From: Escherichia phage P88
Sequence record: NC_026014.1
Direction: 5' to 3' (one strand)
Length of the DNA: 35,814 nt
Shown: in pieces, positions 1,170-14,151 of the stretch
Numbering within the stretch: the first letter of the stretch is position 1
Layout: each line of letters starts with the position of its first letter
Translations under genes and position numbers: made by a program
Notes under the pieces: model-generated
Seen by the model: only the letters and a program-made list of their open reading frames with translations
Database searches by the model: none
What the model was told of the DNA's origin: nothing

Positions 1170-1469
1170 TTAACCAGTTTTCTTGCCGGAGCGGGATGAT
1201 TCCGCTTCGCCTTGCCCAATGTGTGCGAGAGCCGGTACAACCTGCCCGGCCTTGGGTTCAACTTCATCAAACAAAAACCAGTCGCGGTACTTACGGAACA
1301 TGGGGGCTTTCAGAAGCTTTTTTGTTGACTCAAGGTTGGGTTCATTTCGTCCTTGCTCATATTGCCTTAATGCAGCAAGAGTAAGCCCAGTAATCTCTGC
1401 CATTTTTTCTTGTGTAAGCATTTCTGACTTCCGCATGATGCGAATTTTCATAGCTACGGTAGTTGACAT
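1170..1469 (-). CDS. C: Immunity repressor, P2 C-like (HTH)
   Basis: 99 aa, same length as P2 C; HTH segment EKMAEITGLTLAALRQYEQGRNEP and C-terminal PALAHIGQ...SGKKTG recall P2 C; divergent from cox. Confidence 0.85.
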   Translation of the reverse strand: MSTTVAMKIRIMRKSEMLTQEKMAEITGLTLAALRQYEQGRNEPNLESTKKLLKAPMFRKYRDWFLFDEVEPKAGQVVPALAHIGQGEAESSRSGKKTG

Positions 1470-3887: not shown

Positions 3888-4087
3888 ACAAAAAGACCTG
3901 GTTTCGCGCATACATGTGGGCGCTGGTATGCGTCATCGTCTCTCTCATTCTGTATGCAGGACTACTCCCCCGAATGATTTCATCAGACAGCTCCTTCCTG
4001 GTATTGCTGGGCATTTTCATTGCCATGCTGTACCCGGCAGGCGTTGTTCGCCTTTTCAGTAAGTACATCAAGGAAATCAAACAATGA
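3884..4087 (+). CDS. Small two-TM membrane protein, likely partner of the downstream SPFH protein
   Basis: 67 aa with two hydrophobic helices (WALVCVIVSLILYAGLL and FLVLLGIFIAMLYPAGVV); stop overlaps the SPFH gene start. Confidence 0.6.
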   Translation: MNKKTWFRAYMWALVCVIVSLILYAGLLPRMISSDSSFLVLLGIFIAMLYPAGVVRLFSKYIKEIKQ

Positions 4088-4914
4088 AGAAATTCAAACT
4101 CTTTCAGATTCTCCCGCTTTTTGCCGCCATCCTGCTGGTTGGCTGCGATCGCGTTGAGCCAGGTAATGTGGGCATCAAAGTCAACAAGCTGGGCGACGAC
4201 AAAGGCGTTGGCGAAGTGGTTGGCGTTGGCCGCTACTGGACTGGCTGGAATACAGAGGTTTACATCTTCCCGACCTTCAAACAAATGAAGACCTACGATG
4301 AGCCGTTCAGCTTCCAGATGAGTGACGGCACAACCATCGGCTATCACATCGGCGTGGCTTACAAGGTTGATCCATCCAAAGTTACCACAGTGTTTCAGAC
4401 CTACCGCAAAGGCGTGGATGACATTACCGACACTGACCTGCGCCAGAAGATCGCCGATGCACTCAACCGACTGGCCAGCAAAATGACCACCGATAAGTTT
4501 ATCGACGGTGGTAAGTCTGAACTGCTGGATTCAGCACTTAAAGATATTCAGGAAGAGATGACCCCCATCGGCATTCAGGTCATGAGCCTCTCTTATGTCG
4601 GTAAACCGGAATATCCGCCAACCGTTATCGACAGCATTAACGCCAAAGTCACGGCAAACCAGAAAACCCTGCAACGCGAACAGGAAGTCAAGCAACGCGA
4701 AGCTGAAGCCAACATGTTGCGCGCAGAAGCTGCCGGACAGGCTGATGCCATTCGCACAAAAGCCCAGGCTGAAGCTGACGCCATTCGTTTACGCGGTGAA
4801 GCTCTGCGCCAGAATCCCGGCGTTATGGAGCTGGAAGCAATCAACAAATGGAACGGCACGCTGCCGCAATACATGACCAGCAATACTGCTGTTCCGTTTG
4901 TTCCGGTGAAGTAA
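4084..4914 (+). CDS. SPFH/Band-7 (stomatin/prohibitin/HflC-like) lipoprotein
   Basis: 276 aa; lipoprotein signal with lipobox LLVGC; SPFH-like core; Ala/Glu-rich C-terminal coiled coil typical of Band-7 proteins. Confidence 0.85.
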   Translation: MKKFKLFQILPLFAAILLVGCDRVEPGNVGIKVNKLGDDKGVGEVVGVGRYWTGWNTEVYIFPTFKQMKTYDEPFSFQMSDGTTIGYHIGVAYKVDPSKVTTVFQTYRKGVDDITDTDLRQKIADALNRLASKMTTDKFIDGGKSELLDSALKDIQEEMTPIGIQVMSLSYVGKPEYPPTVIDSINAKVTANQKTLQREQEVKQREAEANMLRAEAAGQADAIRTKAQAEADAIRLRGEALRQNPGVMELEAINKWNGTLPQYMTSNTAVPFVPVK

Positions 4915-4920
4915 TTAAAC

Positions 4921-4963
4921 CCGGCCAGTGAAAACCGCTGGCCGGAGCAGTATCAGGATTTTT
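4921..4963 (+). terminator. Putative intrinsic terminator after the SPFH gene
   Basis: Stem CCGGCCAG / CTGGCCGG followed within about 13 nt by a T-run. Confidence 0.35.
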
Positions 4964-5060
4964 TAGTATGTCGTTCTCACAAAAAAACCGCTTGCCATGC
5001 CGCAATCAGTCAGGTTACATTTCCGCTGCACCTCATAAAACGGGTGCCGGGATTTCCACC

Positions 5061-5102
5061 CCGCTGACAACTACAGCGCACAACCGCGCCAGCGGTTTTT
5101 TT
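5061..5102 (+). terminator. Putative intrinsic terminator within a structured non-coding region
   Basis: CCGCTG ... GCGCCAGCGG hairpin followed by seven T. Confidence 0.4.
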
Positions 5103-5281
5103 GTGCGTACTGTATCGCCACGTCTTTTTCGCACACGAATTATGGTGGGGCGTACGGGGCCGACTTCGGTCGGGCCGGGTTCTGTAGTTGCCGGTTGTGG
5201 AAACCCTGTACGTCTCACCACCCCGAGTTTTCCACCTCTGGATGGTGAGTTTTCAAAACTTGCAACTACAGAGGCCACACC

Positions 5282-5512
5282 ATGGCAAACCGCAAACAGC
5301 ACCGCGCTATCGCGGAGCGTCGTCACATCCAGACTGAAATCAACCGCAGACTTTTCCGCGCATCACGCGTCGCGCAAATCATGCACATCAATATGCTGCA
5401 TGAGCGCAGCCACGCACTATCAAACATCTATTCCGCCGCTGTTTTCAGCTATCTGGCGGATGATCTGCACGAGCTTCAACAGCTCATCCAGCAGCAAAAC
5501 AAACTCCATTAA
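5282..5512 (+). CDS. Hypothetical protein (uncertain)
   Basis: 76-aa ORF with AGAGG SD; basic, helical; no family recognised. Confidence 0.35.
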   Translation: MANRKQHRAIAERRHIQTEINRRLFRASRVAQIMHINMLHERSHALSNIYSAAVFSYLADDLHELQQLIQQQNKLH

Positions 5513-5584
5513 TTCCTGTTCCGGGCCTTTCCTGCACCTTGCGGCGGGAGGCCTTCGCACATCTGTAACAAGAGGATTGCCGCA

Positions 5585-5950
5585 ATGATTCTCGCCAACG
5601 ACTTTCTTGAATACCTGCTCAACACAGAACGTGATCTTGCCGCTCGCGTGCGTGAACGTTATGACATGTACCTGAAATCCCTGCCTGTACCGCAGCTCGC
5701 TGACGGAAAGATTGTTATTGATGGTCGCTACATGATTGACAGCCACGAGGGAAATTACAGGCTTTACCGCATTGAAGGTGGCACCCCGTCCGTTATTGGC
5801 ATTTACCAGCGCCCATCCTCTTCAATCGTCGATGTGATTGCCGACAGCATCCGCATCGCACATCGCCATGCCGACACAGAAGACACCGTGCTGGAAATTC
5901 AGCGGCTGGCTACAGTCTGCCGCGACACCCTGAATGGCATGACGAAGTAA
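5585..5950 (+). CDS. Hypothetical protein upstream of replication gene A
   Basis: 121-aa ORF ending 7 nt before the A start; same position as P2 orf81-83-type small genes. Confidence 0.55.
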   Translation: MILANDFLEYLLNTERDLAARVRERYDMYLKSLPVPQLADGKIVIDGRYMIDSHEGNYRLYRIEGGTPSVIGIYQRPSSSIVDVIADSIRIAHRHADTEDTVLEIQRLATVCRDTLNGMTK

Positions 5951-5956
5951 ATCACT

Positions 5957-8779
5957 ATGACGGCAGAGTACATCAGGGACTGGCAACAACCGCGCCACGC
6001 AGTGGGGCGTGAAGGAACGGGGATCCCCGCTCCTGAATCCGCGCTTTCCTCCTGGCTGGATGCCTACCGGGCAGAGAACGAGCGCCGCCAGGAAATGGCT
6101 GATGCGGCGTTCTCCGCCACGCCGCTGGGCAACCTGATTAATAAAAGCCTGGACGCACAGGAAAAACAGGACAAAACCATCACACTGGCAGGAGACGCCA
6201 GAAAACAGGCACGCGGCGCGGTGGATGAAGCCATGGCCTCGCTGCGCCTGCTGCCGTCCTATCTGCGCGATCCGCTTATTCGCCACCTCTCCTTCCTTCG
6301 CAAAAAACAGGAAGCCGATCGCCGGAAAGGCAAAAAGAGCTGGCAGGCGGAACGCTATGCACGCGGAACCCTGCGCAAAATATTCGAACGTCTGGATCGC
6401 ACTGACGGACGCTGGCTGACACCGGGTTATCGCTCCCTTGCCGGACGCGAACGCCTGGACGATTTGCTTTACCTGCCGCAGCTCAACAAACACCAGATAC
6501 AGACGCTGGCCACCATGACGGCAGCGATGTTCAGCAGCACCTTCGAAAAACTCTGCGATGGCTTTGGCGCGACTGATGGCGAACTGACCATGGATGTAAC
6601 GCTGAAGGCGTATCAGATGCTGGCCCGCATGGCGTTACACCTGCACGCTATGCCTCCACATTATGACGCACTGACAACAGACAAAGACCGGAGGAACGAA
6701 CCGGACACAGAGCTGCTGCCGGGCGCAATCCTTCGCCTGACCTGTGCGGAATGGTGGAAACGCAAACTGTGGCTGTTACGTTGCGAGTGGCGGGAAGAAC
6801 AACTCCGCGCCGCCTGTCTGGTTTCCAGAAAAACATCACCCTATCTGAGCCAGGACGCGTTAAGCGAGTTTCGCGCACACCGCGAGAAAACACGCGATTT
6901 CCTGAAAAGTTTCATGCTGGAAAATGAAGACGGGTTCACGATTGATCTCGAGACGGTGTATTACGCGGGAGTAAGTAACCCGGTTCACCGTAAGGCAGAA
7001 ATGATGGCCACCATGAAGGGGCTGGAACTTCTGGCCGAAGCCCGTGGCGACAGAGCGGTGTTTCTGACTGTCACCTGCCCGTCAAAATACCACGCAACAA
7101 CGGAGAACGGTCATCCGAATCCCAAATGGAACGGGGCCACCATGCGCGACTCCAGCGATTACCTGGTTAACACGTTTTTTGCGACGGTCCGCAAAAAACT
7201 GAACCGCGACGGTCTTCGCTGGTATGGCATCCGCACGGTGGAGCCTCACCATGACGGCACTGTGCACTGGCATATGATGGTCTTTGCACATCCGGACGAG
7301 ATTGAAACCATCGTGTCCCACGTCTGCGATATTGCCATTCAGGAAGACCGCCACGAGCTGGGCGATGATATTACTCCGCGTTTTAAAGCGGAGTACGTCG
7401 ACGGCTCAAAAGGCACGCCAACCAGCTACATCGCCACCTACATCGGAAAGAACCTGGACAGCCGCGCCGTGGATGGCATCGACCCGAAAACGGGCAAGCC
7501 ACGCGTTGACCACGAAACCGGAAAATCAATGGCCGAGAGCGTGGAGCGCGCCATCGGCTGGGCGCGCCTTCACCGGGTCCGCCAGTTCCAGTTCTTTGGC
7601 ATCCCCTCCCGTCAGGTGTGGCGTGAACTGCGCCGCCTTGCCAGCCAGATGGCACGCAACCCGGAAGGCCCGCAACGGCTGAAGGATGACGCAATGGATG
7701 CAGTGCTCGCTGCCGCTGATGCCGGGTGTTTTGCCTCCTACATTGAAAAACAGGGCGGCGTACTTGTTCCACGCCAGGACTACCTGATTCGCACCGCCTA
7801 CGACCTCGCAGATGAGCTGAACGATTACGGCGAACAGAGCGTACAGATTTACGGGATCTGGTCACCACTCATCGGGGAGTCTTCCCGTGTGTGCACACAT
7901 CCGGATAACTGGAAGCTGGTAAGACGTAAACCGGAAGCGGAAGACAGCGCCCGCGAAAATGGTTTTGACCTTCAGGGCGGCCCTGCCGCCCCTTGGACTC
8001 GTGGCAATAACTGTCCCCGTGTACAGGAAACGGACAACAACGGGACAGAACAGCCGGAAGAACGGCCAGCACCGTGGCCGCAGCTCCCTGACGGCGTTGA
8101 AGTGAACGAATGGATGCGCTCACTGAAACGGCACGAACGCCGGGCGCTGATGCGTTCGCTTCGTGACAAACAGGCAAAAAACAGCAGTGATGAAATGCAG
8201 AGCTGGACACAGAGCCGCAAACAGCAGCGGCCTTTGCCTGATAACCACGAATTACTCGCTAAAGAATGGCGGGAGTCTGCTGAATCTCTCGGCCTGCATA
8301 TCGGTGAACAACAGATGCAGCACCTGTTACGGGGCGGCAGTCTGTACGTTGACGGCAGCATCATTGCACCGCAGGGATTTGAAATTGTACGCAAACCGGA
8401 TACCCGCCCGGACAGCCGAATCACGCAGCTCTGGCAGCGCCTGAGCCGTAATCATGGCGTAAGCAGCACGGAGATCCGCCATAACCCGGTCGCCAGCTAT
8501 CTGGCACAGCTGGGGGCATCAGACCCTGAAGCCGCCGCACGCCTGGCATCCACACTTCAGCAGGACCAGAACACCATGAAAACACCCGTTACCGTGCTTT
8601 CTGACATGCTGCGCGCCATCCGCGACGCAGAGCACGCACAGAGAATCAGTGAAACCACTGAACGCGCCAGCCGCAAAGCAGACCTGCTGCGGGGTGGCCT
8701 GACCAGTGGAAACAAAAAACAGACAGAAACGGGACTCACGAATCCCGCAAATGAGCAAAAAACGCGCAGCGATATATGA
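5957..8779 (+). CDS. A: Rolling-circle replication initiator endonuclease (P2 gpA-like)
   Basis: 940 aa; HUH-type motif DGTVHWHMMVFAH and twin-tyrosine motif TPTSYIATYIGKN; long low-complexity C-terminal extension versus P2 A (761 aa). Confidence 0.9.
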   Translation: MTAEYIRDWQQPRHAVGREGTGIPAPESALSSWLDAYRAENERRQEMADAAFSATPLGNLINKSLDAQEKQDKTITLAGDARKQARGAVDEAMASLRLLPSYLRDPLIRHLSFLRKKQEADRRKGKKSWQAERYARGTLRKIFERLDRTDGRWLTPGYRSLAGRERLDDLLYLPQLNKHQIQTLATMTAAMFSSTFEKLCDGFGATDGELTMDVTLKAYQMLARMALHLHAMPPHYDALTTDKDRRNEPDTELLPGAILRLTCAEWWKRKLWLLRCEWREEQLRAACLVSRKTSPYLSQDALSEFRAHREKTRDFLKSFMLENEDGFTIDLETVYYAGVSNPVHRKAEMMATMKGLELLAEARGDRAVFLTVTCPSKYHATTENGHPNPKWNGATMRDSSDYLVNTFFATVRKKLNRDGLRWYGIRTVEPHHDGTVHWHMMVFAHPDEIETIVSHVCDIAIQEDRHELGDDITPRFKAEYVDGSKGTPTSYIATYIGKNLDSRAVDGIDPKTGKPRVDHETGKSMAESVERAIGWARLHRVRQFQFFGIPSRQVWRELRRLASQMARNPEGPQRLKDDAMDAVLAAADAGCFASYIEKQGGVLVPRQDYLIRTAYDLADELNDYGEQSVQIYGIWSPLIGESSRVCTHPDNWKLVRRKPEAEDSARENGFDLQGGPAAPWTRGNNCPRVQETDNNGTEQPEERPAPWPQLPDGVEVNEWMRSLKRHERRALMRSLRDKQAKNSSDEMQSWTQSRKQQRPLPDNHELLAKEWRESAESLGLHIGEQQMQHLLRGGSLYVDGSIIAPQGFEIVRKPDTRPDSRITQLWQRLSRNHGVSSTEIRHNPVASYLAQLGASDPEAAARLASTLQQDQNTMKTPVTVLSDMLRAIRDAEHAQRISETTERASRKADLLRGGLTSGNKKQTETGLTNPANEQKTRSDI

Positions 8780-8855: not shown

Positions 8856-9815
8856 ATGAAAATTTGTATCGACGACGGCTCCACCAACATCAAGCTGGCA
8901 TGGACTGAGAACGGCGAACGCCGCAACGCCATCAGCCCGAACAGCTTCAAGTCGGAATGGTCTGCGCCGTTCGGCGGCACGCAGCCCGCGAACTACATGC
9001 TTGATGGCGTGCGCTATGGTTTTGATCCGGTCAGCGATCGCTTTGTCCAGACGACCGACACGCAATACCAGTACAGCGATGTAAATGTCATTGCCATTCA
9101 TCACGCGCTGGTCAAATCAGGCATCACGCCACAGGAGGTGGATGTGGTTGTCACCCTGCCACTGAGCGAGTATTTCGACACAAACGCACAGCCGGACATG
9201 GCCAACATCAACCGCAAAAAAGCGAACGTTATGCGCCCGGTGGAGTACCAGAACGGCGAAGCATTCACTATCCGTAACGTGCGGGTTATGCCTGAATCCA
9301 TTCCGGCTGGCTTTAAAGCACTGGCTGACATGAGTCCGTTTGAATCCCTGCTGATTGTGGATTTAGGTGGAACCACGCTGGATGTGGCAAAGGTTCAGGG
9401 ACAACTGGCAGGTATCAGCCAGGTGTTTTGCGATCCACACGTAGGCGTTTCCCTGATGGCCGATGCAGTACTGTCGGTGATGGCCACTAACGGTATGCGT
9501 ACCAGTCACCACATCGCCAATACCATTATCGAACATCGCCATGATGAAGCCTGGCTGCGCCAGCACATCCACAATGACGCGCATTACGCCAGCCTGATGG
9601 CGGTTATTCGTGAAAAGGAAGAAACACTGAAACAACGCGTGATCCGCGCGCTGGCGGGTTTTTCGGGTTACGGGCGGGTGATGGTTGTCGGTGGCGGGGC
9701 GGAGATTGTGGCACCCGCTATCCGCGAAGCCTGCGGAGTTAATGCGACTTTCATCGCGGACGGGGTGCCACAGTTTGCTCTGGTTAATGGGCTGTACGCA
9801 ATGGACAAGGAGTAA
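8856..9815 (+). CDS. parM: ParM/StbA-like actin-type ATPase (type II partition motor)
   Basis: 319 aa; N-terminus MKICIDDGSTNIKLAW...ISPNSFKSEW co-linear with plasmid R1 ParM (MLVFIDDGSTNIKLQW...ISPNSFKREW, from memory); also QYSDVNV, IVDLGGTTLDV, VMVVGGGAE. Confidence 0.9.
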   Translation: MKICIDDGSTNIKLAWTENGERRNAISPNSFKSEWSAPFGGTQPANYMLDGVRYGFDPVSDRFVQTTDTQYQYSDVNVIAIHHALVKSGITPQEVDVVVTLPLSEYFDTNAQPDMANINRKKANVMRPVEYQNGEAFTIRNVRVMPESIPAGFKALADMSPFESLLIVDLGGTTLDVAKVQGQLAGISQVFCDPHVGVSLMADAVLSVMATNGMRTSHHIANTIIEHRHDEAWLRQHIHNDAHYASLMAVIREKEETLKQRVIRALAGFSGYGRVMVVGGGAEIVAPAIREACGVNATFIADGVPQFALVNGLYAMDKE

Positions 9816-12400: not shown

Positions 12401-14151
12401 CAGAACTCCATAACCGTGAAACGCTCGTTTTCTCCTTCGCCGCCAATCGGTTCGTTAATGACAGCAAGCATGGTTGCCCACGCAAGGTCACCGTGGCTGA
12501 TCCCCCTCGCTCGGTCCGTTTCGTAAGTGATAAAGCCGCCCGGTGTTTTCACCTTACGCACGGCGTTAAAGGCCGCGACCAGCTCGCGTTCGGCACGATC
12601 GTATTCCCACCGCCCGGCACGCATTATTTGCAGCATTTTCAGTACCAGCGACCGTTTTGATGACAGCGTGAAGGTGTACGGAATAGCAGCAGGGAAAAAC
12701 CGTTTCACTATCTGATAAACGGCATCCCCGTGCCCGCCAGTCGCATCAATGCCGATGTGTTCCACGTTGTAGCGACACGTGAACTCTTCAATGACTCTGG
12801 CCTGTTCTTCAAACTCCAGCCCCTGAACGCGTCGCGTCTCCACCGTTCGAAAACGGCCACCAGGAACAGCCGGAGGAACCACCACGGACACCGCGCCGCT
12901 GTCGCCGTTTCCACTGCTGCCGTTTGCGTCATACCCAATCCATACCGGACGATTCCCCATCGGGCGGGGAGCAAAAGGTTTCCAGTCTTTCCAGTCGTCG
13001 TATCCATCAACACCGCAGCCAATCAGGATATTCAGGTTAAATGCCGATTCCCCTTCGCGGACAAACTCACACATATAGAGATTGCGGAACTCGTCTTCGG
13101 TGTTTTCATCACGAATTTCATCAATATCGGTGTGTTTCCAGCCGTGATTAACCACATCTTCCAGCGTGACAATTTGCCGCCACGTCCGGTCGGGGCAGAT
13201 AAGTCCGTTATGCAGCGTTTTCCAGCCCACAGAAAAACGCTGGCGTTTATGCGCGGCCTTTTTCTCGTTCCAGCGGTCGCCGTTCCAATAGACGTATGCC
13301 TCGTGCGTTTCGGTGGATGGCGTGGAGAAGTAGGTGCGCCGCAGTCCGCTGAGGGTTGCCATAGCGCCAGCCACCTTGCGCAGTTCAGCAAAGCGACTGA
13401 CCCAGAAAAATTCATCAAAATAAAAATTGCCTGTGTAGGACTGTGCCGTCGCAGCAGAAGTACCGAGAAAATGCAGTTCTGCGCCGTTGGAGAGGATGAT
13501 TTTATCGCCCCCTTTCAGCTCCACATCAACTTCAGCCGCGGCCTTCTGAATAATGCTTTTAAACTGGAACGCCTGACGACGCGACGCAGACAAAAAAATC
13601 TGGTTACGCTGGTAAGGTTGTGCCACATCGTCACGCAGCGCCATCAGCAGTGCTTCCTGTGCAAAATACCAGGTCGCCCCAATCTGTCGGGATTTCAGGA
13701 TCATCCTGTTACGTATCCCGGCTTCACTGCAAAGGGTCAGGGAGTCAAACCAGCCCCGCTGATGCCACTCCAGCCTGCTGATGATTTTTTCCCGCAGTGC
13801 GGCAATCTGCTCCGGCGTGAAATGATTTTTAAGTTTTTTTGCCCGGCCTTTCTTTCCTGTGGCCGTCGCATCCGGCTGGCCATCATGCAGTTTTTTAAGC
13901 TGCCGGGTCAGCAGGTCTATTTCCTTAAAGTCACCACCTGTTTTATTCTGTTTTTCAGTAAGCTGGATGAGGCGCGCATCGATGGACTGCGTGACACGCT
14001 GCACGGGTGGCGTTTCATCCCACTGGTCGCGTTTTTTCCACGCATAAATCGTGTTCGGGTTTATTCCCATCAGACGTGATATTTCTGCGGGCGGATAACC
14101 CTGCCAGTAAAGTTGCCGCGCACGCTGGCGCACAAAAGCGTCCTGAATCAT
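12400..14151 (-). CDS. P: Terminase large (ATPase) subunit (P2 gpP-like)
   Basis: 583 aa; N-terminal MIQDAFVRQRARQLYWQGYPPAEISRLMGINPNTIYAWKKRDQWDE HTH-like start typical of P2 P; overlaps Q by 1 nt. Confidence 0.93.
   Translation of the reverse strand: MIQDAFVRQRARQLYWQGYPPAEISRLMGINPNTIYAWKKRDQWDETPPVQRVTQSIDARLIQLTEKQNKTGGDFKEIDLLTRQLKKLHDGQPDATATGKKGRAKKLKNHFTPEQIAALREKIISRLEWHQRGWFDSLTLCSEAGIRNRMILKSRQIGATWYFAQEALLMALRDDVAQPYQRNQIFLSASRRQAFQFKSIIQKAAAEVDVELKGGDKIILSNGAELHFLGTSAATAQSYTGNFYFDEFFWVSRFAELRKVAGAMATLSGLRRTYFSTPSTETHEAYVYWNGDRWNEKKAAHKRQRFSVGWKTLHNGLICPDRTWRQIVTLEDVVNHGWKHTDIDEIRDENTEDEFRNLYMCEFVREGESAFNLNILIGCGVDGYDDWKDWKPFAPRPMGNRPVWIGYDANGSSGNGDSGAVSVVVPPAVPGGRFRTVETRRVQGLEFEEQARVIEEFTCRYNVEHIGIDATGGHGDAVYQIVKRFFPAAIPYTFTLSSKRSLVLKMLQIMRAGRWEYDRAERELVAAFNAVRKVKTPGGFITYETDRARGISHGDLAWATMLAVINEPIGGEGENERFTVMEF

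What the first reader, a model, noticed from the sequence alone, without database searches (positions are those of the whole stretch)
4915..5281. Highly structured GC-rich non-coding stretch between the SPFH gene and the A region
About 370 bp with no convincing ORF contains two terminator-like hairpins, a near-perfect UUCG-tetraloop hairpin (GGCCGAC-TTCG-GTCGG), a long-range pairing GGTGGGGCGTACGGGG ... CCCTGTACGTCTCACCACC, and repeated CAACTACAG and GAGTTTTC motifs. The overlapping 206-aa ORF is Ser/Thr-rich and looks non-coding. This could be a phage small RNA, a riboregulatory leader for the downstream genes, or a structured replication or recombination site.
Basis: seen in the sequence. 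Interest (0 to 1): 0.5.

Follow-up and report, generated by a model that had tools for sequence, protein, structure and literature searches.

The report
Phage RNA immunity module (isrK + C4)
The structured stretch holds two already-catalogued phage RNA genes, an isrK-type leader RNA and a C4/CI-type antisense RNA, which most likely keep a prophage quiet by blocking translation of an anti-repressor gene; it is a clear but ordinary member of a known system.

Summary
Window 5028-5102 is a full-length isrK RNA (Rfam RF01394, 63.6 bits). Window 5138-5225 is a full-length C4 antisense RNA (RF01695, 80.5 bits). The UUCG hairpin and the long-range pairing are C4 hairpin 1 and its closing helix.

The repeated CAACTACAG is the pair of target sites b1 and b2 for the C4 loop CUGUAGUUG. 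A second site pair, a1/a2 (UUUCCAC), matches the C4 junction GUGGAAA. Site b2 overlaps the Shine-Dalgarno sequence of a 76-aa homologue of the phage P4 epsilon derepression protein.

Phage P4 has the same layout (isrK = seqA leader, C4 = CI RNA, then epsilon, then the replication gene). Phage P1 has it too (a1 b1, c4, a2 b2, icd, ant). Across about 90 related loci the C4 helices covary, and the loop and junction sequences change together with their four target sites.

The 206-aa ORF shows no codon periodicity, whereas the epsilon-like gene does. Its weak Pfam "Ash" match is a translation of the RNA genes.

The first hairpin (4922-4945) belongs to an inserted SPFH cassette. The GAGTTTTC repeat is at chance level.

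The host is a P88-like, P2-family prophage of E. coli. Verdict: a new member of a known kind, of low to moderate interest.

The parts
4922..4945 (+). GC-rich hairpin at the 3' end of the inserted SPFH cassette (insertion 3891-4977). It is not part of the RNA module. Its T-run lies 14 nt downstream, so it is not a canonical intrinsic terminator.
   Evidence: z -4.7; window 3891-4977 is absent from the P88-like phage L001, where the flanks are adjacent.
4992..5021 (+). Sigma-70-like promoter (TTGCCA, 18 nt spacer, TACATT). It places the transcription start at about 5028, which is position 1 of the isrK model.
   Evidence: the only promoter-like site in 4600-5700. Both hexamers are unchanged in 14 of the 16 distinct P88-like upstream sequences shown. 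Function is inferred.
5028..5102 (+). isrK-type leader RNA, equivalent to the P4 seqA leader and the P1 a1-b1 region. It has two 5' hairpins, a single-stranded stretch and an intrinsic terminator.
   Evidence: Rfam RF01394, 63.6 bits (gathering score 50), model positions 1-77 of 77. Fold z-score -3.5. The same family hits the P4 leader.
5053..5059 (+). Site a1 (UUUCCAC) in the loop of isrK hairpin 2, complementary to a' in C4.
   Evidence: I6: 5050-5059 against 5197-5206. Co-varies with a' across loci.
5068..5076 (+). Site b1 (CAACUACAG), complementary to the C4 hairpin-2 loop b'.
   Evidence: I7, 9 of 9 complementary. Co-varies with b'.
5082..5102 (+). Intrinsic terminator of isrK (AACCGC GCCA GCGGUU followed by a U-run).
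5138..5225 (+). C4/CI-type antisense RNA. Closing helix 5143-5159 with 5204-5220. Hairpin 1 at 5160-5173 (UUCG loop). Hairpin 2 at 5174-5195 (12-nt loop). Junction at 5196-5203.
   Evidence: Rfam RF01695, 80.5 bits (gathering score 45), model positions 1-87 of 87. The minimum-free-energy fold equals the Rfam structure at -45.3 kcal/mol, z -3.4. Covariation: 98.8% of cells paired, 17 of 27 pairs with changes on both sides.
5182..5190 (+). Recognition element b' (CUGUAGUUG) in the hairpin-2 loop.
   Evidence: There are 8 alleles among 23 close relatives, each matched by its own b1 and b2.
5197..5203 (+). Recognition element a' (GUGGAAA) in the single-stranded junction.
   Evidence: There are 6 alleles among 23 close relatives, and a2 matches with 0 mismatches in 23 of 23.
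5229..5235 (+). Site a2 (UUUCCAC), 9 nt after the closing helix of C4.
   Evidence: (D1). It holds the same position as a2 in the P1 record.
5263..5274 (+). Site b2 (CAACUACAGA) overlapping the Shine-Dalgarno AGAGG (5270-5274). The start codon is at 5282.
   Evidence: In 61 of 77 loci with a recognisable b2 the next ATG follows it by 9-11 nt. P1 has the same geometry.
5282..5512 (+). 76-aa homologue of the P4 epsilon derepression (anti-repressor) protein, the predicted regulated gene.
   Evidence: Pfam PF25738, 31.8 bits (gathering score 27). phrog_3688, 1e-46. 29% identity to P4 epsilon, E 2e-8. Third-codon-position excess of variable sites, 29/27/54.
5585..8779 (+). Distal genes of the same transcription unit, probably subject to polarity: orf121 (5585-5950, unknown function) and the gpA replication endonuclease (5957-8779).
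   Evidence: Phage_GPA 1e-128. Co-regulation is inferred by analogy with P4.
1170..1469 (-). P2 C-type immunity repressor of the prophage, the likely target of the epsilon-like protein.
   Evidence: 44% identity over all 99 aa to P2 C, E 3e-35. HTH_3 domain. The interaction is inferred.
4968..5588 (+). 206-aa ORF. Judged not to encode a protein under amino-acid selection.
   Evidence: against the marginal Pfam Phage_ASH hit, which also maps onto the RNA genes in P4.

Best explanation
The region is the control head of an RNA-based immunity module of the P4 (seqA, CI RNA, seqC) and P1 immI (a1 b1, c4, a2 b2) type. It sits in the early operon of a P88-like, P2-family prophage.

Proposed mechanism:

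1. A constitutive-looking promoter at 4992-5021 starts transcription at about 5028.
2. Most transcripts stop at the isrK terminator (5082-5102) and give a roughly 75-nt leader RNA that carries sites a1 and b1.
3. Read-through transcripts carry the C4 element (5138-5225). In P1 and P4 this element is cut out as a stable antisense RNA of about 77 nt.
4. C4 has two exposed segments: b' (CUGUAGUUG, hairpin-2 loop) and a' (GUGGAAA, junction). They pair with a2 (5229-5235) and b2 (5263-5272) on the same transcription unit.
5. Site b2 covers the Shine-Dalgarno sequence of a 76-aa homologue of the P4 epsilon anti-repressor. Pairing therefore blocks its translation. By loss of coupled translation, it probably also lowers transcription into orf121 and the replication gene A.
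6. The epsilon-like protein would otherwise inactivate the prophage's P2 C-type repressor.
7. Sites a1 and b1 in the leader are a second, competing partner for C4. They could act as a decoy, or as the site where C4 promotes termination.

What is shown: the identity of the two RNAs, their structures, the covariation, the four-site complementarity and its co-variation, the overlap of b2 with the ribosome-binding site, and the homology of the downstream protein.

What is inferred: the promoter activity, the processing of C4, the translational block, the polarity on downstream genes, and the target of the epsilon-like protein.
For: - Rfam: isrK at 63.6 bits and C4 at 80.5 bits, both full length and above their gathering scores. 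They are the only hits in the 35.8-kb window.
- The same two families hit the experimentally studied P4 immunity region. C4 lands on the CI RNA (74.9 bits) and isrK on the seqA leader (60.8 bits), followed by epsilon, two ORFs and the alpha replication gene.
- The P1 record annotates a1, b1, c4, a2, b2 and icd with nearly the same spacings as in the window.
- C4 structure: the minimum-free-energy fold equals the Rfam structure. Over 54 distinct homologues, 98.8% of cells are paired, 17 of 27 pairs change on both sides, and slid controls give 32-50% paired.
- Four-site complementarity is exact in the window.
- Over 90 contexts with 47 different loop/junction combinations, duplex energies with a locus's own flanks are -25.6 and -24.1 kcal/mol. 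Non-cognate flanks give -18.0 and -15.9. The positions of the sites are constant.
- Among 23 P88-like sequences there are 8 b' alleles and 6 a' alleles in 12 combinations. Identity is 92% outside the six sites and 67% inside them, and the cognate sites match.
- The start codon follows b2 by 9-11 nt in most loci. The gene there is an epsilon-type, Rha-type or small protein.
- The 76-aa product is an epsilon homologue, and the repressor is of the P2 C type.
[quoted passage not shown] Hershko-Shalev 2016 (PMC4825925) equates IsrK with seqA and STnc1160 with CI. Weinberg 2010 (PMC2864571) lists the c4 and c4-a1b1 motifs.
Against: - There are no expression data for this locus. The promoter, the terminator efficiency and the processing of C4 are predictions.
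- Global co-folding of mature C4 with the target gives almost no net gain (ddG -1.2 kcal/mol), because loop-loop contacts are not modelled. Only local duplex energies (-28.8 and -28.3 kcal/mol) support binding.
- In the window the unprocessed transcript is predicted to pair b'/a' with b2 in cis. Repression could therefore be partly in cis and not by the free RNA.
- In Gifsy-1 the experimentally shown effect of the short leader RNA is activation, not repression.
- The target of the epsilon-like protein is untested.
- The frame of the 206-aa ORF is open in most close relatives.
Confidence: 0.85

Rival explanations
1. Activator model, as shown for Gifsy-1 IsrK. The long read-through transcript is translationally silent because of its own structure. 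The main regulatory act would then be that the short leader RNA (5028-5102), acting in trans, opens it and switches on translation of the downstream anti-repressor. C4 would be mainly a cis-acting lock and not a diffusible repressor.
For: - Experiments on the homologous Gifsy-1 locus show 100-fold activation of anrP translation by IsrK in trans.
- In the window the unprocessed transcript is predicted to pair the C4 loop and junction with b2 and the ribosome-binding site in cis (I2).
- The leader carries perfect a1 and b1 copies that could compete for C4, with duplex energy -28.3 against -28.8 kcal/mol for the target.
Against: - In P1 and P4, C4/CI acts in trans as the immunity repressor. This rests on the P1 record's annotation, on Barquist 2013, and on my own knowledge of Citron and Schuster 1990 and Deho, Ghisotti and co-workers.
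- The co-variation of a'/b' with both site pairs fits both models and does not discriminate between them.
- The two models are compatible: repressor plus decoy.
Confidence: 0.3
2. The 206-aa ORF (4968-5588) is translated, not for its protein but for ribosome transit. Transcripts that read in from the upstream early operon contain its start codon, which lies upstream of the isrK promoter. Ribosomes crossing isrK and C4 would prevent terminator and C4 folding and would couple to orf121 through the overlapping ATGA at 5585-5588. Lytic transcripts would thereby escape the immunity module.
For: - The frame is open in 22 of 23 close relatives and in P4, where it runs 217 codons.
- The start codon at 4968 lies upstream of the promoter, and the stop codon overlaps the orf121 start.
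- There is no amino-acid-level constraint, as this model would expect.
- In Gifsy-1 a 45-codon ORF that starts at the AUG at the 5' end of C4 is translated and needed for coupling.
Against: - Stop-creating variants are not significantly depleted: 2 observed against 1.6 expected in the RNA part, and 4 against 8.9 overall.
- The frame is open in only 5 of 12 evaluable lineages, although C4 and its sites are present in all.
- The window holds many other long spurious ORFs overlapping real genes, for example 449 aa at 12730-14079.
Confidence: 0.1
3. The ORF encodes a real Ash-family protein or transcriptional regulator, as some phage records annotate it.
For: - Pfam Phage_ASH at 27.1 bits (gathering score 26), plus five PHROG families.
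- It is annotated as a transcriptional regulator in NC_049391 and as an 'ash family protein' pseudogene by the NCBI annotation pipeline PGAP.
Against: - The matched residues, 17-108, are exactly the isrK and C4 genes. In P4 the same Pfam model covers isrK plus the CI RNA.
- There is no codon periodicity: variable columns by codon position are 29/32/28, against 29/27/54 in the epsilon-like gene, which the ORF overlaps out of frame.
- The synonymous fraction is no higher than in another frame.
- Helix covariation forces paired amino-acid replacements.
- Spacer lengths differ by non-multiples of 3 in diverse lineages, and the frame is closed in 7 of 12 lineages.
- PGAP only ever calls it partial.
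Confidence: 0.04
4. A structured DNA site for replication or recombination.
For: Dense inverted repeats lie next to the replication gene A.
Against: - Structure is strand-specific: z is -3.4 and -3.5 on the + strand against -1.3 and -1.6 on the - strand.
- Covariation includes G-U pairs, which are meaningful only in RNA.
- There are no iterons.
- The P2 origin is annotated inside gene A.
- The same element occurs in lambdoid, P1-like and P4-like genomes with unrelated replication systems.
Confidence: 0.02

Closest known systems
Satellite phage P4 immunity region (PLE, seqA leader, CI RNA with seqB, seqC, then kil/eta, epsilon, orf151, orf106, alpha)
   Same: - The same two Rfam families occur in the same order and on the same strand.
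- An epsilon-family protein and then the replication gene follow in the same operon.
- The same 'Ash'/cI phantom ORF overlies the RNAs.
   Different: - The host element here is a complete P2-type phage with a C/Cox switch, not a satellite.
- The replication gene is gpA, not the alpha primase.
- The epsilon-like gene follows C4 directly, and its own ribosome-binding site is the b2 target. In P4 about 245 nt holding kil/eta lie between them.
- The spacer between isrK and C4 is 36 nt here against about 108 nt in P4.
P1/P7 immI operon (P51, a1 b1, c4, a2 b2, icd, ant1/2)
   Same: - C4 family member.
- The four-site logic is identical, and so is the geometry. The a1-to-b1 start-to-start distance is 14 nt in P1 and 15 nt here. 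Site a2 follows directly after C4. Site b2 lies 10-11 nt before the start codon and includes the Shine-Dalgarno sequence.
- The output is an anti-repressor pathway.
   Different: - The P1 leader scores as c4-a1b1 (RF03163) and not as isrK.
- The first regulated gene in P1 is icd, with ant downstream. Here it is an epsilon-type protein.
- P1's main repressor is C1, whereas here it is a P2 C-type repressor.
Salmonella Gifsy-1 isrK, orf45 (STnc1160), anrP, isrJ locus
   Same: - An isrK family member is followed by a C4-like element, and then by an anti-repressor-type gene.
- The short leader and the long read-through transcript start from one promoter.
- Lambdoid Stx phages carry the same module at 76% identity to the window.
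   Different: - Gifsy-1 is lambdoid.
- The regulated gene there is a Rha/AnrP-type anti-repressor reached through a 45-codon coupling ORF. In the window the frame from that AUG (5142) runs on to 5588 instead of stopping before the next gene.
Phage P2 / 186 early operon
   Same: Integrase, a C-type repressor (44% identity), Cox and gpA, all in the same order.
   Different: The P2 early region has no isrK, no C4 and no epsilon homologue. The module is an addition to the P2 plan.

Membership tests
C4 antisense RNA (Rfam RF01695; P1 c4 / P4 CI) | Covariance-model score at or above the gathering score, full length | tested here: met
   80.5 bits against a gathering score of 45, model positions 1-87 of 87.
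C4 antisense RNA (Rfam RF01695; P1 c4 / P4 CI) | A closing helix enclosing two hairpins, supported by covariation | tested here: met
   The minimum-free-energy fold equals the Rfam structure. 98.8% of cells are paired, 17 of 27 pairs change on both sides, and slid controls give 32-50%. The hairpin-2 stem is invariant, partly because my search pattern required it.
C4 antisense RNA (Rfam RF01695; P1 c4 / P4 CI) | Two exposed segments (b' loop, a' junction) complementary to a site pair upstream (a1, b1) and a site pair downstream (a2, b2) | tested here: met
   Exact 9-mer and 7-mer matches in the window, and co-variation across 47 allele combinations.
C4 antisense RNA (Rfam RF01695; P1 c4 / P4 CI) | The downstream site covers the ribosome-binding site of the first regulated gene | tested here: met
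   b2 at 5263-5272 overlaps AGAGG at 5270-5274, with the ATG at 5282. The spacing is the same in most loci and in P1.
C4 antisense RNA (Rfam RF01695; P1 c4 / P4 CI) | Excised from a longer transcript (RNase P at the 5' end) to a stable RNA of about 77 nt that represses in trans | not testable with these tools
   Needs RNA mapping and genetics. Known for P1 and P4 from the literature (my own knowledge).
isrK (Rfam RF01394; P4 seqA leader) | Covariance-model score at or above the gathering score, full length, ending in an intrinsic terminator | tested here: met
   63.6 bits against a gathering score of 50, model positions 1-77 of 77. Terminator at 5082-5102.
isrK (Rfam RF01394; P4 seqA leader) | Own promoter directly upstream, and partial read-through into the downstream genes | tested here: inconclusive
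   A promoter-like site at 4992-5021 is correctly placed and is conserved in P88-like relatives. Neither its activity nor read-through was measured.
isrK (Rfam RF01394; P4 seqA leader) | Hfq binding | not testable with these tools
   This is a biochemical property.
P4-type immunity operon | The RNA module heads an operon with a derepression (epsilon) gene and the replication gene | tested here: met
   The 76-aa product is an epsilon homologue, and gpA follows.
Pfam PF10554 Phage_ASH / 'Ash family protein' | HMM score at or above the gathering score | tested here: met
   27.1 bits against 26, residues 17-108. This is marginal.
Pfam PF10554 Phage_ASH / 'Ash family protein' | A protein-coding gene with selection at the amino-acid level in that frame | tested here: not met
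   No codon periodicity, no synonymous excess, and the frame is not conserved in 7 of 12 lineages. The domain coincides with the RNA genes in P4 as well.

The most novel reading that the evidence does not exclude
In P88-like P2-family phages the borrowed P4/P1-type RNA module may be the gate of an epsilon-type anti-repressor aimed at the phage's own P2 C-type repressor. That would give a normally non-inducible phage type an RNA-controlled induction or anti-immunity switch.

The two-part address (8 b' and 6 a' alleles reassorting on a 92%-identical backbone) would act as a rapidly diversifying heteroimmunity and anti-satellite code.

A further untested twist is that transcripts reading in from the early operon escape the isrK terminator. 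They could do so either through the long-range complement 4973-4995 / 5088-5110 or through translation of the open frame.
Probability: 0.3. Interest if true: 0.5.

Novelty: new member of a known kind. Interest (0 to 1): 0.27.

Why it matters
Scientifically this adds little that is new. The isrK-C4 arrangement is documented for P4, P1/P7, Gifsy-1 and lambdoid prophages.

It matters in three modest ways:

- **Annotation.** In the three RefSeq loci inspected the two RNA genes are unannotated, and some records carry an 'ash family protein' pseudogene or a 'transcriptional regulator' over them instead. Some part of the 2-kb query around the module (window 4000-6000) matches in 1,699 of 5,426 complete E. 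coli genomes.
- **Phage biology.** A full P2-type phage, not only its satellite, carries the RNA immunity module together with an epsilon-type derepression gene. This bears on how helper phages and satellites share or contest immunity.
- **Specificity.** The clean, modular reassortment of the two recognition elements with their four targets is a compact natural data set on how the specificity of antisense RNA immunity evolves.

Tried and rejected
- **Protein-coding reading of the 206-aa ORF.** Rejected on codon periodicity, synonymous fraction, stop-creation statistics and frame conservation across lineages. The openness of the frame in close relatives remains a loose end.
- **GAGTTTTC repeat.** The first copy merely overlaps a2. 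The second copy is constant while a' varies, and an 8-mer repeat is expected by chance. Dropped as a functional motif. RNAduplex does use 5249-5254 as an alternative partner of a' in the window only (I2, 89).
- **CACAACC (5079-5085) as the partner of the junction.** This was my first reading. Comparative data show that the conserved partner is UUUCCAC in the isrK hairpin-2 loop.
- **Site labels.** My early notes used a and b swapped relative to the P1 nomenclature. I corrected them after reading the P1 record.
- **RNAalifold on a plain MAFFT alignment.** It recovered only the inner helices because the closing helix was misaligned. A structure-aware alignment was needed.
- **orf121 (5585-5950).** No similarity to P4 orf151 or P2 orf83, so its function is unknown.
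- **Long-range complement 4973-4995 / 5088-5110 as a conserved anti-terminator.** It is found only in the P88-like group. Elsewhere only an A-tract is present. Left as a note.
- **Sabbattini et al. 1995.** The paper on the P4 target sites is not held in the library, so statements on P4 genetics rest on secondary citations and my own knowledge.
- **Global co-folding of C4 with its targets.** Uninformative.
Full report
**1. What is in the sequence**

Reading 4300-6200 and the ORF list gives this order:
- an SPFH/Band-7 gene (4084-4914; Pfam 6e-31);
- the 370-bp stretch of the finding;
- a 76-aa ORF (5282-5512);
- a 121-aa ORF (5585-5950);
- a 940-aa gpA replication endonuclease (5957-8779; Phage_GPA 1e-128).

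Folding is better than shuffled controls on the + strand only. The z-scores are -3.4 for 5138-5225, -3.5 for 5028-5102 and -6.5 for 4915-5281, against -1.3 and -1.6 on the - strand. The region is not more GC-rich than its neighbours.

**2. Identity**

A scan of the whole window against Rfam gives exactly two hits, both inside the finding and both full length:
- isrK (RF01394) at 5028-5102, 63.6 bits, gathering score 50;
- C4 antisense RNA (RF01695) at 5138-5225, 80.5 bits, gathering score 45.

The "long-range pairing" is the 17-bp closing helix of C4 (5143-5159 with 5204-5220). The second "terminator-like hairpin" is the isrK terminator (5082-5102). The only promoter-like site in 4600-5700 (TTGCCA, 18 nt, TACATT; 4992-5021) puts a start at about 5028, which is position 1 of the isrK model.

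**3. The repeated CAACTACAG**

The 12-nt loop of C4 hairpin 2 contains CUGUAGUUG (5182-5190). This is the exact complement of CAACUACAG at 5068-5076, inside isrK, and at 5263-5271. The single-stranded junction of C4 contains GUGGAAA (5197-5203). This is the complement of UUUCCAC at 5053-5059, in the loop of isrK hairpin 2, and at 5229-5235.

In the nomenclature of the P1 record these are b', b1, b2 and a', a1, a2. Site b2 runs into the Shine-Dalgarno AGAGG (5270-5274) of the 76-aa ORF, whose ATG is at 5282.

P1 has the same order and nearly the same spacings. Sites a1 and b1 start 14 nt apart in P1 and 15 nt apart here. Site a2 lies right after c4. Site b2 lies 10-11 nt before the start codon of icd and includes its Shine-Dalgarno sequence.

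**4. Comparative test**

A pattern scan of IMG/VR for the conserved C4 core returned 119 loci. Of these, 103 have a closing helix of -28 kcal/mol or better. They give 90 unique contexts and 47 different loop/junction combinations.

- **Structure.** A covariance model built from 34 of them and aligned to 92 hits (54 distinct) gives 98.8% paired cells. 17 of 27 pairs change on both sides (262 cells). No shuffle reaches the score, and slid controls give 32-50% paired. The hairpin-2 stem is invariant, partly because my pattern required it.
- **Recognition.** The loop-plus-junction segment pairs with its own upstream and downstream flanks at -25.6 and -24.1 kcal/mol on average. Flanks of loci with a different segment give -18.0 and -15.9 (Mann-Whitney p about 1e-47 and 1e-43, not corrected for relatedness).
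- **Position.** The sites sit at constant positions.
- **Close relatives.** This is the sharpest view. Among 23 P88-like sequences, nearly all differences fall in the six short sites (67% identity inside them against 92% outside). There are 8 b' alleles and 6 a' alleles in 12 combinations. Site a2 matches a' without mismatch in 23 of 23, and b1 and b2 match b' with 0-2 mismatches, against about 3.5 for non-cognate pairs.

This is the signature of an antisense RNA whose specificity is set by two short address elements, as known for P1 versus P7.

**5. Downstream genes and host element**

- The 76-aa product belongs to the Pfam Derepression family (31.8 bits, gathering score 27). It aligns with the P4 epsilon protein (29% identity over 66 aa, E 2e-8).
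- In P4 itself, Rfam places C4 on the CI RNA (8420-8507, 74.9 bits) and isrK on the leader upstream (8615-8692, 60.8 bits). Epsilon, two ORFs and the alpha replication gene follow. The window repeats the P4 plan: leader, antisense RNA, epsilon-like gene, one ORF, replication gene.
- The element as a whole is a P2-family phage of the P88 type (Xuanwuvirus). It has an integrase, a 99-aa repressor 44% identical to P2 C (E 3e-35), Cox and gpA.
- P2 itself has none of the RNA genes.
- Elsewhere, the gene whose start follows b2 by 9-11 nt is an epsilon-type protein, a Rha-type regulatory protein or a small protein.
- The window is 100% identical over 4000-6000 to E. coli chromosomes.

**6. The ORF question**

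The 206-aa ORF gives a marginal Pfam Phage_ASH hit (27.1 bits against 26) over residues 17-108, which is exactly isrK plus C4. In P4 the same model covers the frame across isrK and the CI RNA at full length. P4's old "cI gene product" CDS lies there too.

Tests for coding signal gave these results:
- **Periodicity.** In 23 relatives, variable columns fall 29/32/28 on the three codon positions of this frame in 5028-5281 (chi-square p 0.86). In the epsilon-like gene they fall 29/27/54 in its own frame (p 0.002), which is out of phase with the ORF.
- **Stop codons.** Stop-creating variants are not depleted: 2 observed against 1.6 expected in the RNA part, and 4 against 8.9 overall.
- **Synonymous changes.** The fraction is 22.7%, against 21.5% in another frame.
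- **Frame conservation.** Spacer lengths differ by non-multiples of three in divergent lineages. The frame is open in only 5 of 12 evaluable lineages.

Against this, the frame is open in 22 of 23 close relatives and in P4. In Gifsy-1 a 45-codon ORF that starts at the AUG at the 5' end of C4 is translated and serves translational coupling.

I conclude that no protein under amino-acid selection is encoded. A role for the act of translation is not excluded, and I put it at about 10%.

**7. What the first 63 bases are**

Window 3891-4977 is absent from the P88-like phage L001, where the flanking sequences are adjacent. It holds a 67-aa membrane ORF, the SPFH gene and the hairpin at 4922-4945. That hairpin therefore closes an inserted cargo cassette and is unrelated to the RNA module.

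**8. Mechanism**

Shown:
- the identity of the two RNAs, their structure and their covariation;
- the four-site complementarity and its co-variation;
- the overlap of b2 with the ribosome-binding site;
- the homology of the regulated protein to P4 epsilon and of the repressor to P2 C.

Inferred, by analogy with P1 and P4 (the P1 record's annotation; Barquist 2013; Hershko-Shalev 2016; my own knowledge of Citron and Schuster 1990 and of the Milan group's work on P4):
- the promoter at 4992-5021 is active in the lysogen;
- most transcripts end at 5102 as a 75-nt leader;
- read-through transcripts are processed to a free C4 RNA;
- C4 binds a2 and b2, blocks the ribosome-binding site of the epsilon-like gene and, through loss of translation, reduces transcription into orf121 and gpA;
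- the epsilon-like protein would otherwise inactivate the C-type repressor.

The leader, with its own a1 and b1, is a competing partner. Local duplex energies are about equal (-28.3 against -28.8 kcal/mol). It may therefore act as a decoy, which would reconcile the repressor view from P1 and P4 with the activator result for Gifsy-1 IsrK. The unprocessed transcript is also predicted to pair b'/a' with b2 in cis.

**9. Comparison and novelty**

The system is known. Rfam holds C4, isrK and the a1-b1 motif (RF03163, same clan as C4). Weinberg 2010 lists the c4 and c4-a1b1 motifs. [quoted passage not shown] Hershko-Shalev 2016 dissects the Gifsy-1 copy.

This locus passes every membership feature that could be tested. 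Particular to it are the host, a complete P2-type phage, and the direct placement of the epsilon-type gene on the b2 site. I found no paper on this module in P88-like phages. The three RefSeq records inspected carry no ncRNA feature here. I therefore rate it a new member of a known kind.

**10. Verdict**

The element is an isrK plus C4 RNA immunity module. Interest is low to moderate (0.27). The most novel reading not excluded is an RNA-gated self-directed anti-repressor with a rapidly diversifying address code, plus an escape route for read-in transcripts. I give it about 0.3 probability.

Noticed in passing
window 5016-5291; L123 (P4) about 8330-8704: Several protein annotations all coincide with the isrK and C4/CI RNA genes: Pfam PF10554 (Phage_ASH), five PHROG families (995, 821, 6928, 29966, 3960), the 'ash family protein' pseudogene calls of the NCBI annotation pipeline PGAP, and P4's old 'cI gene product' CDS. 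These protein families look like translations of conserved RNA genes.
   Followed up: partly
window 3891-4977: A 1,087-bp cargo cassette (67-aa membrane ORF, SPFH/Band-7 gene, closing hairpin) is inserted just upstream of the isrK promoter, relative to P88-like phages.
   Followed up: partly
window 4973-4995 and 5088-5110: A 23-nt inverted repeat, 87% complementary. An A-tract plus CCGCTTGC, which overlaps the -35 element, is complementary to the 3' half of the isrK terminator and its U-tract. It is kept in P88-like relatives, and L104 has a perfect 20-mer. Transcripts reading in from the early operon could use it to bypass the terminator. It is not seen outside this group.
   Followed up: partly
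window 5585-5588: The stop codon of the 206-aa ORF overlaps the start codon of orf121 (ATGA). This is a typical coupling arrangement, although the ORF shows no coding signal.
   Followed up: partly
L009, L011, L044, L055, L081: Several viral contigs carry two C4 modules about 650-870 nt apart on the same strand (in L081 they are about 8.4 kb apart). This suggests stacked RNA immunity units.
   Followed up: no
window 8856-9815: A ParM-type plasmid segregation gene lies directly after gpA in this integrated P2-type prophage (StbA_N 2e-82). P88-like records annotate it as well.
   Followed up: no
window 5249-5254 and 5079-5086: There are window-specific extra complementarities to the C4 junction and hairpin-2 stem: GUUUUC, and CACAACCG against CGGUUGUG at 5192-5199. 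RNAduplex prefers them, but they do not co-vary in relatives.
   Followed up: yes
L013 (97% identical to the window): In L013 the a1 site differs from the window (UUCUCAC in place of UUUCCAC), while a' and a2 are unchanged. Here a1 has drifted or been exchanged independently of the other sites.
   Followed up: no
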